Assembly (NCBI GenBank): GCA_049297775.1
Contig: JBAQUX010000025.1
Location: 122,835-186,834, forward strand
Direction of reading: 5' to 3'
Source of the DNA: Minisyncoccia bacterium
Lineage (GTDB): Bacteria; Patescibacteriota; Minisyncoccia; Phycocordibacterales; UBA2100
DNA length: 64,000 nucleotides
The first letter of the stretch is position 1. Every line of letters starts with the position of its first letter. Both the position numbers and the translations under genes were made by a program. Below are positions 1 through 63,586 of this stretch, in pieces. The notes under the pieces were generated by a model that worked only from the letters and a program-made list of their open reading frames with translations, was not told the DNA's origin and did no database searches.

Positions 1-1453
1 TCCTTTCCTTCTTGCCGTTCAAGCTCCGTCTTCTTTGTTGTTGCAGTAATATATTTGCGTACATCTTGTGCGTTACTCAGAAGCCCTGCGTGTGTGAGTG
101 CTTTTGTAACAAAGGGGTGCTCAGGTGCTAAGACCAAACAGGTAGCACCATAGAGCGTGTCAGGGCGAGTAGTAAATACTGGAATGCCGGGTAAAACATT
201 TTGAACAACGAACGGCTCATCACTTGAAGTAAAATGTATCTTTTTTGCTTTCGCTTCATGTATTTTTGCAGATATTTTTTCACTTAAGTACTCTATGTAT
301 TTACCTCGTTTCTCGTTTTCTAGCGAATCAGCAAGAATCTTTCTAAAACCAGCGAGTGATTTAATTTTCTCATAGTCACAGACCATAGTGAATGTTTTCC
401 AAAATGGTCTAGGTTGATCAGGGCTAAAGCGCTCTTCCATGGCCGGGGCAACGAGAATGAGTCCTGCAACCTTTATGTTCAACCGCTCTAGAACCTTCAT
501 TGCAACAACTGCGCCCAGTGAGTGCCCGACGATAATTGTATTTTCATCAATCGTGCATGAATCAATTACATACTGCACCTGCTCAATCTCCCTCGGCTTG
601 TCAGTATTCGGCATTTGAGGGCACTCCACGCTGTGTCCATTTTTCTCTAAAGATTTTTTCAAATTTGGGAGAAAATTTTTATCCGCCCTGCCTGTAAACC
701 CATGCAAAATAACGAAGTTTTCCTTTTTTGCATTAGAATTACTATTTACTACTTGAAAATTTATTTCTGCACCTTCACTTCTTCCAATCCAATTTCTTTG
801 AGAATCTTTAATAGCATCTGGCCAATCGAGTGGCGCGAGATCATCTACCAATCTATCTGCATATTGCGTTATGCGAATGTTCCATTGTGGCATCTCGCGT
901 TGGAGCACGTCACTACTGCATCGTTCACACGTACCTGAAACAACTTGCTCATTCGCAAGCACTGTCTTACATGAAGGGCACCAGTTTGCCATCGTTGGCT
1001 TTCGATACACCAAGCCTTTCTTGTAGAGTTGTAGGAACAAAGATTGTGTCCACTTATAGTATGCAGGATCACAAGTAATCACTTCACGATTCCAATCAAA
1101 CGAGGTACCCATAGACTCAATCTGCTTGCGCATATGCGCAATGTTCTTGTATGTCCATGTACGTGGATTAATGCCACGCTTTATCGCTGCGTTTTCTGCA
1201 GGAAGTCCGAATGCGTCAAAACCTATCGGGTATAGCACGTTCATTCCTTGCATGCGTCGGAAGCGCGTATACATGTCTGGGACTGCAAATGCGTACCAGT
1301 GCCCGACGTGCAAATTGCCAGATGGATATGGGAACTCAACGAGTACAAACTCGTTTTTCTTACCCTTTACGCTATCTTTAGTGGTGTACAATTTTTTCTT
1401 GGCCCATTCCTGCTGCCATTTTTTTTCTACACGAAGATGGTTGTACGATTTCA
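1..1453 (-). CDS. leuS: Leucyl-tRNA synthetase, N-terminal part (C-terminus runs off the window start). An in-frame ~185-aa YdeN/RBBP9-like serine-hydrolase domain (approx nt 200-750) sits between the catalytic-core segment ending RNWIGRSEGAEINFQV and the VFTTRPDT motif that opens the CP1 editing domain.
   Basis: My own minus-strand translation from ATG at 1453: MKSYNHLRVEKKWQQEWAKKK...EFPYPSGNLHVGHWYAFAVPDMYTRFRRMQGMNVLYPIGFDAFGLPAENAAIKRG (class I HxGH region), then ...MANWCPSCKTVLANEQV...QRNWIGRSEGAEINFQV, then ENFVILHGFTGRADKNF...TIIVGHSLGAVVAMKVLERL...GLILVAPA...IHFTSSDEPFV (GxSxG alpha/beta hydrolase), then VFTTRPDTLYGATCLVLAPEHPF. Frame continuity checked codon by codon for nt 1-840. 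The gene is absent from the ORF track because it is open at the window edge. Confidence 0.85.
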
Positions 1454-1460
1454 TACGCAC

Positions 1461-2138
1461 TTATTGTGTTGTTTCTACAAGCGGAGGTGCTTGAATTGTG
1501 CCGTCACAAGTATCTACCACGGTACCATCAGCAAGTGTCTGTATGCCACATTCAGGAGATACCATCTTAATTCCAGCATATTCAGAAATAACACTCGCTC
1601 CCGTAATCACAGCAAGTGTCACAACGATGGACCAGAACATACCCGTAGCAATAGCGGTTGTTGTTGAGCGACGTGTGCCCGCTGTAGCAACCTTAATTGC
1701 TTTATAGTACGCAAAAAATGTAAATGCAGCTGCAAGCACGTACACTGCAACAAGTGAGGGATTAACGAGCGTCTCCATGTATCCGTAATACCACTGGGAC
1801 AGCACATCGAGAATAGACCAGACGAGCGTGCCTGCGGCGAGAATATTCAAAGACTCACTATGAGAAAATCTTTCTGAAATATTTTGAGAAGAATAACGAG
1901 TGATAGCGTACATGAATCCAACGGTACAGCCGAGAGCAACGAGACCGATGCACACTGCATCTATGAGAGGATTTTCAAATAATGGCGGAGTAACATAATA
2001 GTATCCGAGTGCACTACCGATAAACGCGATAATACTGTGCGCTACTGGCCACTCACTATATCGACCGCGCTCGGGCGCCTTGAGCATAATAATTTCTATC
2101 GCTGTTTGGATGAGTTTCATACCTGTACGGTACCACAA
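1461..2138 (-). CDS. Hypothetical integral membrane protein (about 5 predicted TM helices)
   Basis: 225-aa ORF with several hydrophobic stretches and no recognisable family. Confidence 0.5.
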   Translation of the reverse strand: MWYRTGMKLIQTAIEIIMLKAPERGRYSEWPVAHSIIAFIGSALGYYYVTPPLFENPLIDAVCIGLVALGCTVGFMYAITRYSSQNISERFSHSESLNILAAGTLVWSILDVLSQWYYGYMETLVNPSLVAVYVLAAAFTFFAYYKAIKVATAGTRRSTTTAIATGMFWSIVVTLAVITGASVISEYAGIKMVSPECGIQTLADGTVVDTCDGTIQAPPLVETTQ

Positions 2139-2240: not shown

Positions 2241-3341
2241 CTAGCTGTGCAAAAATTCCATCACGTCTCCGTCCTGAACTATGTATTCTTTTCCTTCAGT
2301 TCGAATAGCACCTTTTGAACGTGCTTCCGCCCATGAGCCTGCATCAAGTAATTTTTGCCAGTTACATGTTTCCGCTCGAATAAACTTATCTTTAAAATCA
2401 GTGTGTATGACACCCGCTGCTTCTGGCGCTGTTGCACCTACGGGGATTGTCCATGCGCGTGTCTCGACTTCCCCTGTGGTGAAGTACGACATGAGATTTA
2501 AGGTACGGTACCCTGCTTGTATGAGCGCATTCAAACCATCTTCAGTAACACCAAACCCGTCTCTAAACTCTGCACGCTCTGCGACAGACACATCCTTAAG
2601 CGAACGCTCAACACCCACATCTACAGTGACGACGGTTGCGTTACTTTCCTGTAAAAACTTTTGAAGACTCTGCCATCGTTCATCTTTAGTATCATCCAAA
2701 TTTTCTGCACCACTTTTTCTGTTCAGAATATACATGATTGGCTTCATGGTGAGCAGTGAGAGCTTTTTCACTTCGATAACCTCTTTGTCATCCAATGAGG
2801 CAGTACGTGCGAGCTTCCCGGCTTCGAGTACTGCAAATACTTTTGTAAGTGCACCATCAAGGAGCACTGCGTCTTTGTCGCCACGCTTTAAATCTCTACC
2901 ATTCGTCTCTTTGCGCTTAGCGACTGTTTGCATATCTGCCAATATGAGCTCGAGATTTATCACTTCTACATCCTGCATGGGATCAACTTTTCCATGCACG
3001 TGAATAACATCGGTATCTTCAAAGATGCGCACTACTTCTGCAATGGCATCGACTTCACGTATGTTTGCAAGAAACGCATTGCCGAGACCTTCACCTTCTG
3101 AAGCACCTTTGACGAGTCCGGCGATATCAACAAACTCAACAATGGCAGGAACGATTTTTTTGGTGTTTGACATTATCGAAAGCTTGTCGAGTCTTATATC
3201 TGGAACAGCGACAACGCCCACTGATGGGTCAATGGTGCAGAATGGATAATTTTCTGCAGGAACGGACTTCTCGGTGAGAGCATTAAAGAGTGTAGATTTG
3301 CCCACATTAGGGAGGCCGACAATACCAATTTTAAGTGACAT
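2241..3341 (-). CDS. ychF: Ribosome-binding ATPase YchF (Obg-family GTPase with a TGS-like C-terminus)
   Basis: [23 protein letters not shown]... G1 motif, a YchF-type coiled insert, and the C-terminal [14 protein letters not shown] typical of YchF. Confidence 0.88.
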
Positions 3342-63442: not shown

Positions 63443-63516
63443 CGGTCTTCGATTCACAAGGCGTAACGTGCCTATGCACGTTACTTCCGGCGCGAAAAAT
63501 GCTCCGCTTTTTTTGC
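63443..63516. repeat. Direct repeat copy 2, immediately 3' of tRNA-Gln
   Basis: See copy 1; carries the same aacgtgc-ctat-gcacgtt hairpin. Confidence 0.7.
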
Positions 63517-63586
63517 TGCCAGACTTGGAATCGAACCAAGATTGAGAGCTTCAAAGGCTCCTGTCCTACCTTTAGACGATCTGGCA
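63516..63586 (-). tRNA. tRNA-Gln (anticodon UUG), CCA not encoded
   Basis: Minus-strand fold done by hand: acceptor TGCCAGA/TCTGGCA (U1-A72 as in bacterial tRNA-Gln), D-stem GTCT/GGAC, anticodon stem GGAGC/GCTCT with loop CTTTGAA (anticodon TTG), T-stem CTTGG/CCAAG with loop TTCGATT, discriminator G. Confidence 0.8.

What the first reader, a model, noticed from the sequence alone, without database searches (positions are those of the whole stretch)
1..1453. Leucyl-tRNA synthetase with an in-frame YdeN/RBBP9-type serine-hydrolase domain at the catalytic-core/CP1 junction
The minus-strand reading frame of leuS is continuous (checked codon by codon over nt 1-840) through a ~185-aa segment, about nt 200-750. 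That segment has the hallmarks of the small Ser_hydrolase alpha/beta-fold family (B. subtilis YdeN, human RBBP9): ILHGFTG oxyanion region, TIIVGHSLGA nucleophile elbow, GLILVAPA, a C-terminal IHFTSSDEPFV acid-residue strand, and the intervening QMPNTDKPREIEQ and CDYEKIK that parallel YdeN. It sits exactly where bacterial LeuRS has only ~15 residues, between ...RNWIGRSEG(A/V)EI(N/T)F and the (V/Y)TTRPDT motif that opens the CP1 editing domain. I do not know of a described aaRS with a serine-hydrolase module. Aminoacyl-tRNA is an ester, so a serine esterase beside the editing domain could be an auxiliary deacylase or proofreading module, or a moonlighting activity. Either would be mechanistically new.
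Basis: partly seen in the sequence, partly recalled or inferred. Interest (0 to 1): 0.88.

Follow-up and report, generated by a model that had tools for sequence, protein, structure and literature searches.

The report
Serine hydrolase nested inside leucyl-tRNA synthetase
An essential translation enzyme (leucyl-tRNA synthetase) of an ultra-small CPR/Minisyncoccia bacterium carries a complete, apparently active RBBP9/YdeN-type serine hydrolase spliced in-frame into one of its surface loops. This is one case of a widespread pattern, not found in the searched literature, in which these bacteria nest small hydrolases inside large housekeeping proteins.

Summary
The minus-strand ORF starting at nt 1454 is the first 484 aa of a bona fide bacterial LeuRS. 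Residues 237-421 (nt 192-746) are a complete RBBP9/YdeN serine hydrolase: Pfam PF06821, AF2 pLDDT 92, and best fold matches 1UXO and RBBP9. It sits in the beta-hairpin just before the CP1 motif TTRPDT.

The triad is Ser312-Glu379-His407.

It is not a misassembly. An independent Logan assembly gives the identical gene, and more than 60 other LeuRSs from metagenomes and MAGs carry the same domain.

The full-length protein (1131 aa) also has a NUDIX domain inside CP1. In other CPR LeuRSs the hydrolase sits at three or more other sites. It also occurs inside IleRS, ValRS, AlaRS, TsaD, UvrA and SecA. LeuRS and IleRS also host NUDIX, Ham1, HAD, GNAT and phosphatase domains, sometimes swapped between near-identical hosts.

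The CP1 editing motifs remain intact. The most likely reading is therefore an autonomous, interchangeable "guest" enzyme, not a geometrically coupled second editing site. An aminoacyl-ester or tRNA deacylase role is not excluded. I found no published description.

The parts
1..1454 (-). The first 484 codons of leuS. The ORF runs off the window start. The full protein is 1131 aa (P0010 = NCBI MFZ2594052.1 / MFZ2707492.1, Minisyncoccia MAG).
   Evidence: TIGR00396 920.8 bits for the full length.
747..1454 (-). LeuRS catalytic N-half, residues 1-236. It includes the HIGH motif HVGH (residues 49-52, nt 1299-1310) and the ZN1 four-Cys knuckle (CPSC...CERC).
   Evidence: PF00133 1e-32; aligned to 1H3N residues 1-237.
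192..746 (-). Nested RBBP9/YdeN-type alpha/beta serine hydrolase domain, residues 237-421. The folded core is residues 246-420. It is flanked by a 12-residue N-linker of low confidence (NSNSNAKKE) and a short C-linker (LPGIP).
699..704 (-). Oxyanion-region His251-Gly252 (the HG of VILHGFTG).
   Evidence: The column is 43/43 H and 42/43 G in embedded copies.
519..521 (-). Catalytic nucleophile Ser312 (GHSLG).
   Evidence: 43/43 in embedded copies. It aligns with RBBP9 Ser75.
318..320 (-). Triad acid Glu379 (DSLENE). It occupies the column of RBBP9 Asp138.
   Evidence: embedded copies: D 41, E 21 of 68.
234..236 (-). Catalytic His407 (KIHF), the position of the GHF motif of stand-alone YdeN proteins and of RBBP9 His165.
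   Evidence: Invariant, 43/43 and 68/68.
1..191 (-). Start of the CP1 editing domain, residues 422-484. It includes the threonine-rich editing motif TTRPDT (residues 428-433, nt 156-173).
   Evidence: (PF13603).
1461..2138 (-). Upstream co-oriented gene for a 208-225 aa protein that looks by eye like a membrane protein. Its stop lies 7 nt before the leuS ATG. It is context only and not part of the fusion.

Best explanation
The insert is a complete, independently folding and most likely active RBBP9/YdeN-family serine hydrolase (Ser312-Glu379-His407). It is nested on flexible linkers in the turn of the beta-hairpin that leads into the CP1 editing domain of an otherwise normal, functional LeuRS.

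It is one of a set of interchangeable 'guest' enzymes: YdeN hydrolase, NUDIX, Ham1, HAD, GNAT and small phosphatases. CPR/Minisyncoccota bacteria insert these into permissive surface loops of large housekeeping proteins, above all the class Ia synthetases.

In this reading the hydrolase does its own small-molecule job, hydrolysing an ester, amide or thioester, possibly an alpha-aminoacyl one as in RBBP9. The fusion gives it obligatory co-expression and co-localisation with the translation machinery. It does not create a geometrically coupled second editing site.

Shown: the architecture, the fold, conservation of the triad, the spread across hosts and sites, the variety of guests, and intact CP1 motifs. 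Inferred: catalytic activity, autonomy of action, and the reason for the fusion.
For: - Fold and family.
- Triad: Ser 43/43, His 43/43, oxyanion H 43/43 and G 42/43, and an acid (D or E) in 34/43 embedded copies. This points to selection for catalysis.
- Linkers: both have low pLDDT (block means about 60).
- Sites in LeuRS: the same domain sits at four or more sites. Site A is at 236/422. Site B follows the HCxxC knuckle near residue 768. Site C is near residue 975. Site D is the CP1 loop that holds NUDIX in this protein.
- Other hosts: AlaRS, ValRS, IleRS, UvrA, SecA, TsaD, a formyltransferase, thioredoxin and inositol monophosphatase.
- Other guests in LeuRS and IleRS: NUDIX (this protein and L001), GNAT, Ham1, HAD, tandem YdeN, His_Phos_1 and LMWPc.
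- Guest swapping: the near-identical IleRSs L009 and L021 differ by NUDIX versus LMWPc in one slot.
- NUDIX is present in some of the window's closest LeuRS relatives and absent in others.
- Host and guest identities are discordant. The closest hosts (70-75% identity) carry hydrolases only 37-55% identical, while distant hosts (45-52%) carry hydrolases 49-59% identical.
- Stand-alone homologues are interleaved with embedded ones in the domain tree. One checked stand-alone copy is not next to leuS.
- CP1 motifs TRxDT and AHDxRD are intact in 57 of 60 hydrolase-bearing LeuRSs.
- Embedded domains are on average acidic (net charge -3.0), so they show no general RNA-binding signature.
Against: - The host range is strongly biased. 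LeuRS dominates: about 55 of the top 150 cluster representatives and 33 of 80 metagenome loci.
- Most other hosts handle tRNA or aminoacyl-tRNA: IleRS, ValRS, AlaRS, an Fmt-like protein and TsaD. All four synthetases are editing enzymes for aliphatic amino acids.
- In IleRS the domain sits at the homologous spot, just before the CP1 threonine-rich motif.
- The family's only characterised chemistry acts on alpha-aminoacyl groups.
- These points fit a synthetase-linked function. The bias may partly reflect seeding the searches with a LeuRS insert, and the large size and loop tolerance of these hosts.
- No activity data exist.
Confidence: 0.5

Rival explanations
1. Auxiliary quality-control module. 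The nested hydrolase works with LeuRS on aminoacyl (thio)esters or anhydrides generated at the synthetase. Candidates are mischarged tRNALeu, released non-cognate aminoacyl-adenylate, or reactive editing by-products such as homocysteine thiolactone. It would be a second, CP1-independent hydrolytic site.
For: - RBBP9 traps single Leu/Ile/Met/aromatic residues as acyl-enzyme and needs a free alpha-amine. The authors allow ester or thioester substrates.
- RBBP9 activates valacyclovir (reference); that this drug is an L-valyl ester of a nucleoside analogue is from my own knowledge.
- There is a strong bias towards LeuRS, and the other synthetase hosts are all editing enzymes (IleRS, ValRS, AlaRS).
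- The placement in LeuRS site A and in IleRS is homologous, directly before the CP1 threonine-rich motif.
- The triad is invariant.
- The CPR clade has a conserved basic motif (D-R-x-R-P-F) in the cap where RBBP9 has Glu108. This could bind phosphate, but it rests on alignment alone.
- That LeuRS, IleRS and MetRS edit homocysteine to its thiolactone, and that alpha/beta hydrolases such as BPHL hydrolyse it, is from my own knowledge and was not checked here.
Against: - The same domain is nested in SecA, UvrA, thioredoxin and inositol monophosphatase.
- It occupies four or more structurally unrelated sites in LeuRS, on flexible linkers.
- LeuRS also hosts chemically unrelated guests, some of them swapped.
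- CP1 is intact, so nothing needs replacing.
- RBBP9's alpha-amine anchor and hydrophobic cage are not conserved. In the window they are R349, E381 and K382.
- The domains are mostly acidic.
Confidence: 0.25
2. Amino-acid supply. The domain is an RBBP9-like serine aminopeptidase or amino-acid esterase. It releases hydrophobic amino acids from scavenged peptides next to the synthetase that consumes them, which would be useful to an auxotrophic episymbiont.
For: - RBBP9 is an aminopeptidase for hydrophobic and aromatic N-terminal residues.
- The synthetase hosts are specific for Leu, Ile, Val and Ala.
- CPR bacteria generally lack amino-acid biosynthesis (my own knowledge).
Against: - RBBP9's specificity residues are not conserved, and the window's pocket positions are charged.
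- The non-synthetase hosts argue against it.
- A free amino acid would diffuse away, so proximity gives little benefit.
- The other guests (NUDIX, Ham1, HAD) do not fit this logic.
Confidence: 0.12
3. Non-catalytic module. The hydrolase fold is retained as a structural, regulatory or protein-binding spacer (a pseudo-enzyme).
For: - In this subgroup the acid is Glu rather than Asp, and the residues after it have diverged.
- The domain evolves faster than the LeuRS core.
- Its GC content is 39% against 44-47% in the host gene.
Against: Ser, His and the HG oxyanion motif are invariant or nearly so in 43 embedded copies spread across very divergent hosts. The fold is modelled as complete with high confidence.
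Confidence: 0.06
4. Artefact: a chimeric assembly, or two genes joined by a sequencing error.
For: None was found. The only weak hint is P0001, a frameshifted fragment in one low-coverage Logan contig.
Against: - The gene is identical in an independent assembly.
- Two NCBI MAG protein records hold it.
- More than 60 divergent LeuRSs have the same junctions, with a uniform insert length of 576-597 nt.
Confidence: 0.01

Closest known systems
RBBP9 / YdeN serine hydrolase family (Pfam PF06821; PDB 1UXO, 2QS9, 7OEX)
   Same: It has the same roughly 185-aa minimal alpha/beta-hydrolase fold (TM about 0.8), the HG oxyanion motif, the GHSxG nucleophile elbow and a GHF-type His loop. Sequence-profile E-values are 4.8e-59 to YdeN and 1e-32 to RBBP9.
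   Different: It is nested inside another enzyme rather than stand-alone. The acid is Glu, not Asp. It has a clade-specific cap motif (xFxDRxRPF). RBBP9's Glu108, Phe140 and Leu141 substrate contacts are not conserved.
Canonical bacterial LeuRS with CP1 editing domain (T. thermophilus 1H3N, E. coli 4AQ7)
   Same: HIGH and KMSKS motifs, ZN1, the CP1 motifs TTRPDT and AHDERD, and the anticodon-binding and C-terminal domains are all present. It passes TIGR00396. Like CP1 itself, the guest is a hydrolytic domain nested in the Rossmann-fold body.
   Different: It has two extra nested enzymes: the hydrolase between Tt 237 and 241, and NUDIX between Tt 364 and 376. It lacks the leucine-specific domain (Tt about 579-637).
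Synthetases with accreted accessory domains, e.g. NCBIfam NF040702 'isoleucine--tRNA ligase, N-acetyltransferase domain-containing', and eukaryotic aaRS appended domains
   Same: An aaRS carries an extra enzymatic or accessory domain. The NCBIfam model shows curators already recognise one bacterial case, IleRS with GNAT.
   Different: Here the guest is a serine hydrolase. It is inserted internally rather than appended. It occurs at several sites and hosts, alongside a repertoire of alternative guests.
Free-standing aminoacyl-tRNA trans-editing factors (AlaX, YbaK/ProX, DTD)
   Same: If the rival reading is right, it would share their function: hydrolysis of an aminoacyl ester outside the synthetase's own editing site.
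   Different: There is no sequence or fold relationship. Pfam finds only alpha/beta-hydrolase families in the insert.
Inteins in housekeeping proteins
   Same: A self-contained module is inserted in-frame into conserved essential proteins (aaRS, SecA, UvrA), with patchy presence among close relatives.
   Different: There is no Hint/intein domain hit. The junctions have no Cys/Ser/Thr+1 or His-Asn (they read INF|QVVN and PGIP|VFTT). The guest is a metabolic enzyme with a conserved active site, so it is presumably retained in the mature protein.

Membership tests
Bacterial leucyl-tRNA synthetase (TIGR00396 leuS_bact) | Whole-protein score above the curated equivalog cut-off | tested here: met
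   The full-length protein P0010 scores 920.8 bits against a cut-off of 548.4. The 484-aa window fragment alone scores 398.7 bits.
Bacterial leucyl-tRNA synthetase (TIGR00396 leuS_bact) | Class I signature motifs HIGH and KMSKS | tested here: met
   HVGH is at residues 49-52 in the window. KMSKS is at residues 910-914 of P0010, outside the window.
Bacterial leucyl-tRNA synthetase (TIGR00396 leuS_bact) | CP1 editing domain with the threonine-rich motif and the conserved Asp (AHDxRD) | tested here: met
   TTRPDT is at residues 428-433. VPAHDERD is in P0010. PF13603 is matched.
Bacterial leucyl-tRNA synthetase (TIGR00396 leuS_bact) | Leucylation of tRNALeu | not testable with these tools
   This needs an aminoacylation assay.
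RBBP9/YdeN serine hydrolase (Pfam PF06821) | Score above the Pfam gathering threshold | tested here: met
   42.8 bits against 22, E=7e-11. Only profile positions 1-97 of 172 are matched by the single sequence. A family profile covers the full length of 1UXO.
RBBP9/YdeN serine hydrolase (Pfam PF06821) | Minimal alpha/beta-hydrolase fold of about 185 aa | tested here: met
   The AF2 model has pLDDT 92.1. The top Foldseek hits are 1UXO and RBBP9, with TM 0.77-0.83.
RBBP9/YdeN serine hydrolase (Pfam PF06821) | Ser-Asp-His catalytic triad in the canonical order | tested here: met
   S312 and H407 align with RBBP9 S75 and H165. The acid column holds E379 where the family has Asp, a conservative variant shared by this subgroup.
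RBBP9/YdeN serine hydrolase (Pfam PF06821) | RBBP9-type substrate pocket (alpha-amine anchor Glu108; hydrophobic cage Tyr99, Leu103, Phe140, Leu141) | tested here: not met
   The aligned positions in the window are A338, a gap, R349, E381 and K382. This rests on a MAFFT alignment only, and the loop region is uncertain. It argues against RBBP9-like specificity, not against family membership.
RBBP9/YdeN serine hydrolase (Pfam PF06821) | Serine hydrolase activity | not testable with these tools
   This needs activity-based probes or esterase assays.
Intein | Hint domain, with a nucleophile at the first residue and His-Asn plus Cys/Ser/Thr at the C-junction | tested here: not met
   No Hint/intein Pfam hit. 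The junction residues are Q/V...P|V.
Known aa-tRNA editing or deacylase families (CP1-like, AlaX, YbaK, DTD) | Homology of the insert to one of these families | tested here: not met
   Pfam and NCBIfam scans of the insert return only alpha/beta-hydrolase families.

The most novel reading that the evidence does not exclude
The nested hydrolase is a second proofreading or detoxifying active site that does not depend on CP1. It would hydrolyse aminoacyl esters, anhydrides or thioesters produced at the synthetase, such as mischarged tRNA, released aminoacyl-AMP or homocysteine thiolactone. CPR bacteria would then have a modular, cassette-like system that plugs interchangeable small hydrolases (YdeN, NUDIX, Ham1, HAD, phosphatases, GNAT) into editing-type synthetases to tune translation quality control or local metabolite clean-up.
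Probability: 0.2. Interest if true: 0.9.

Novelty: new variant of a known kind. Interest (0 to 1): 0.68.

Why it matters
1. It adds an apparently undescribed domain architecture to one of the best-studied enzyme families. It shows that LeuRS tolerates whole enzymes in at least four loops. That is useful for synthetase engineering and for understanding how CP1-type insertions arose.

2. The pattern of one guest in many hosts and sites, many guests in one host, and guest swaps between near-identical hosts points to a general mode of proteome organisation in ultra-small CPR genomes that the searched literature does not describe.

3. If the hydrolase acts on aminoacyl esters, it would be a new kind of translational quality control.

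4. There is a practical consequence. GenBank names this essential LeuRS 'alpha/beta fold hydrolase', so such fusions can make core genes look absent from CPR genomes in metabolic reconstructions.

Tried and rejected
- Intein or other self-splicing element: no Hint domain and no splice-junction residues.
- Misassembly: rejected.
- An 11-nt perfect inverted repeat (nt 168-178 / 743-753) brackets the insert almost exactly and is rare in within-gene controls (1/200). None of 20 related LeuRS loci has anything above chance at the same junctions. I treat it as coincidence, not as a recombination or RNA-structure signal.
- Compensation for a degenerate CP1: rejected. The editing motifs are intact in 57 of 60. 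The LeuRSs set aside as lacking the queried motifs, P0033 and L053, have a TTWxHT variant and keep the HDxRD Asp.
- Gene-neighbourhood link between stand-alone homologues and leuS: the one case examined (P0025) follows rmuC.
- tRNA-binding charge signature: the embedded domains are on average acidic. The window's copy is +2, which is not informative.
- Compositional evidence for recent acquisition: only a mild GC dip, 39% against 44-47%.
- A second copy of the hydrolase or NUDIX elsewhere in the window: none.
- The broad alignment A1 was too divergent for the metagenome scan, so a narrower one (A3) was used.
- The search for homologous proteins recovered almost only short stand-alone proteins and missed P0010. 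The exhaustive representative search was needed to see the embedded copies.
- I did not predict the full-length structure. The tool returns no coordinates or PAE, so the distance from Ser312 to the editing or synthetic sites could not have been measured.
Full report
**1. What is in the sequence**

The minus strand holds an ORF that starts at the ATG at nt 1452-1454 and runs without a stop to the window edge, 484 codons in all.

Residues 1-236 are the N-terminal half of a class I synthetase (PF00133 1e-32; TIGR00396 leuS_bact 5e-119 for the fragment). They include HVGH and a four-Cys ZN1 knuckle. Residues 422-484 open the LeuRS editing domain (PF13603) with VFTTRPDT.

Aligned to T. thermophilus LeuRS 1H3N, query 1-236 equals Tt 1-237 and query 422-549 equals Tt 241-364. 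About 185 residues (237-421, nt 192-746) therefore replace the turn of the beta-hairpin that leads into CP1.

The full-length protein is in public collections as P0010. It is 1131 aa and 100% identical over the insert. NCBI holds it as MFZ2594052.1 / MFZ2707492.1, 'MAG: alpha/beta fold hydrolase [Minisyncoccia bacterium]'. Minisyncoccia is a class of the phylum Minisyncoccota; from my own knowledge this is the CPR/Patescibacteria lineage. P0010 passes the curated LeuRS equivalog model at 920.8 bits against a cut-off of 548.4.

**2. The insert is a complete RBBP9/YdeN hydrolase**

- Pfam PF06821 Ser_hydrolase matches at E=7e-11 and 42.8 bits, above the threshold of 22. The single sequence covers only the first half of the profile.
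- A 62-sequence family profile hits B. subtilis YdeN (1UXO) at 4.8e-59 and human RBBP9 at 1e-32, over their full lengths.
- AlphaFold2 with that alignment gives pLDDT 92.1 and pTM 0.89. The model has six strands and the expected helices. Only the first 12 or so and the last 5 or so residues have low confidence, and these are the linkers.
- Foldseek against the PDB ranks 1UXO and RBBP9 (7OEX, 2QS9, 9FCR) first, with TM 0.77-0.83.

In alignments of 69-146 family members, the nucleophile Ser (window S312, GHSLG), the His (H407, KIHF) and the HG oxyanion motif are invariant or nearly so in all 43 full-length embedded copies. The acid column holds D in most copies and E in the window's subgroup (E379).

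It corresponds to GHFxxxDG in stand-alone proteins.

**3. Not an artefact, and not rare**

A Logan assembly of SRR28011841 carries the identical gene (1454/1454 nt over the window part) with the same neighbours: ychF, a small gene whose product looks by eye like a membrane protein, leuS, then a sigma-factor-like gene.

A GTDB MAG contig (L001) encodes a 1136-aa LeuRS with the same insert, 59% identical.

An exhaustive phmmer search of 1.84 billion representatives found 1079 relatives of the insert at E≤1e-3. Of the best 150, about 55 are LeuRSs or LeuRS fragments.

A metagenome scan returned 80 loci:
- 33 nested in LeuRS
- 2 nested in IleRS
- about 45 stand-alone genes of about 185 aa

At site A the distance between the conserved flanks is uniform, 576-597 nt.

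**4. The wider pattern**

(a) The window's own LeuRS has a second guest. This is a NUDIX domain inside CP1, between Tt 364 and 376 (GGIEPGEDVVTAGKREIQEEAGY). It lies beyond the window edge, and L001 has it too. The protein lacks the leucine-specific domain.

(b) The hydrolase occupies at least four different sites in LeuRSs:
- Site A, as in the window.
- Site B, directly after the HCxxC knuckle near residue 768.
- Site C, near residue 975.
- Site D, the CP1 loop that holds NUDIX in the window's protein.

(c) The same hydrolase clade is nested in other proteins:
- AlaRS, ValRS and IleRS
- TsaD
- a formyltransferase
- UvrA and SecA
- it is also fused to thioredoxin and to inositol monophosphatase

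In IleRS (L009, L021) it sits immediately before WTTTPWTLP, the structural equivalent of LeuRS site A.

(d) LeuRS and IleRS host other small enzymes: GNAT, Ham1, HAD, tandem YdeN, NUDIX (once or twice), His_Phos_1 and LMWPc. The near-identical IleRSs L009 and L021 differ by NUDIX versus LMWPc in the same slot. NUDIX is present in some of the window's closest LeuRS relatives and absent in others.

(e) Host and guest similarities are discordant. LeuRSs 70-75% identical to the window's in the N-core carry hydrolases only 37-55% identical. LeuRSs 45-52% identical carry hydrolases 49-59% identical.

A rough NJ tree, without support values, interleaves stand-alone, LeuRS-A, LeuRS-B, IleRS, AlaRS and ValRS copies. 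It places one site-A copy (P0130) with canonical stand-alone YdeN proteins.

Together these observations suggest repeated capture, transfer or replacement of guests. Very uneven evolutionary rates are an alternative explanation.

**5. What it most likely does**

The invariant Ser, His and HG residues across very divergent hosts argue for a working hydrolase.

The only family member with defined chemistry is RBBP9. [quoted passage not shown] It has also been identified as a valacyclovir-activating enzyme (Shenoy 2020, cited in PMC7730578). That makes an aminoacyl-ester substrate chemically plausible.

Several results argue against a geometrically coupled second editing site:
- The sites and hosts are varied.
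- The linkers are flexible.
- The guests are varied and can be swapped.
- CP1 motifs are intact in 57 of 60 hydrolase-bearing LeuRSs.
- The embedded domains are on average acidic.
- RBBP9's substrate contacts are not conserved. The window has R349, E381 and K382 at the positions aligned to Glu108, Phe140 and Leu141 (alignment-based).

I therefore favour an autonomous guest enzyme tethered to LeuRS (0.5). The alternatives are a synthetase-coupled proofreading or clean-up module (0.25), an amino-acid-supplying aminopeptidase (0.12), a pseudo-enzyme (0.06) and an artefact (0.01).

The strong bias towards LeuRS and other editing synthetases, and the homologous placement in IleRS, are the main facts that keep the coupled reading alive. 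Part of that bias may come from seeding the searches with a LeuRS insert, and from the size and loop tolerance of these proteins.

**6. Comparison with what is known, and novelty**

Each part belongs to a known family: bacterial LeuRS and RBBP9/YdeN. The membership tests are listed separately in this report.

The combination is not described in the literature I could search: 7.7 million PMC papers plus bioRxiv, using five queries. The nearest curated precedent is NCBIfam NF040702, an IleRS carrying a GNAT domain.

The sequences themselves are public but are auto-annotated, and this one is named only for its guest.

I rate it a new variant of a known kind. The broader 'guest cassette' pattern is the more interesting lead.

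**7. Dead ends**

- Intein: no.
- An 11-nt perfect inverted repeat that brackets the insert in the window is not found in 20 relatives.
- One stand-alone homologue is not linked to leuS.
- There is only a mild GC dip in the insert.
- There are no further copies in the window.

Noticed in passing
Beyond the window start; P0010 residues ~548-708 (L086:7642-8124 approx.); also L001 residues 564-680: The same LeuRS carries a second nested enzyme, a NUDIX domain inside the CP1 editing domain (between Tt LeuRS 364 and 376). It is present in some close relatives (1128-1191 aa) and absent in others (978-995 aa).
   Followed up: partly
L009 and L021 (metagenome contigs ERZ772964 NODE-70 and ODIM01000006.1): Two near-identical IleRSs of 1524 and 1576 aa each carry two YdeN-like hydrolase domains. 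One sits right before the CP1 WTTTPWTLP motif and one inside CP1. A further slot holds NUDIX in one protein and a low-molecular-weight phosphatase (LMWPc) in the other, which looks like a cassette swap.
   Followed up: partly
Proteins P0077, P0103, P0017, P0073, P0016, P0149: Other CPR LeuRS and IleRS proteins carry nested GNAT, Ham1/ITPase, HAD, tandem YdeN, double NUDIX and His_Phos_1 domains. LeuRS seems to act as a general scaffold for small 'house-cleaning' enzymes.
   Followed up: partly
Proteins P0020, P0053, P0112, P0040, P0133, P0065: The same hydrolase clade is nested in AlaRS, ValRS, UvrA, SecA, TsaD and a formyltransferase.
   Followed up: partly
window 1-1454 versus L001, L006-L008, L015, L019-L023, L029: Host and guest identities are discordant. 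The closest LeuRS hosts have the most divergent hydrolase domains, and the reverse also holds. This suggests guest replacement or very uneven evolutionary rates.
   Followed up: partly
window 168-178 and 743-753: A perfect 11-nt inverted repeat (AGTAGTAAATA / TATTTACTACT) brackets the hydrolase insert almost exactly. It is not conserved in 20 related loci and is probably chance.
   Followed up: yes
P0010 / window 1-1454: GenBank names this essential LeuRS 'alpha/beta fold hydrolase', although it scores 920.8 bits on the LeuRS equivalog model. Nested guests can hide core genes in automatic annotation.
   Followed up: yes
P0010 residues ~905-910 versus Tt LeuRS 579-637: This LeuRS lacks the leucine-specific insertion domain that is present in T. 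thermophilus and E. coli LeuRS.
   Followed up: no
window 192-746: The insert has lower G+C (39.3%) than the flanking leuS parts (44-48%) and the whole window (43.7%).
   Followed up: partly
window 1461-2138 (-) and 2241-3341 (-): A gene for a 208-225 aa protein that looks by eye like a membrane protein ends 7 nt upstream of the leuS start. A ychF GTPase gene lies upstream of that. The same order is seen in the independent assembly L086, which also shows purine-biosynthesis genes (SAICAR synthase, adenylosuccinate lyase, AIR synthase) nearby.
   Followed up: no
window 63516-63586 (-): This tRNA gene is the only Rfam match in the 64-kb window at gathering thresholds.
   Followed up: no
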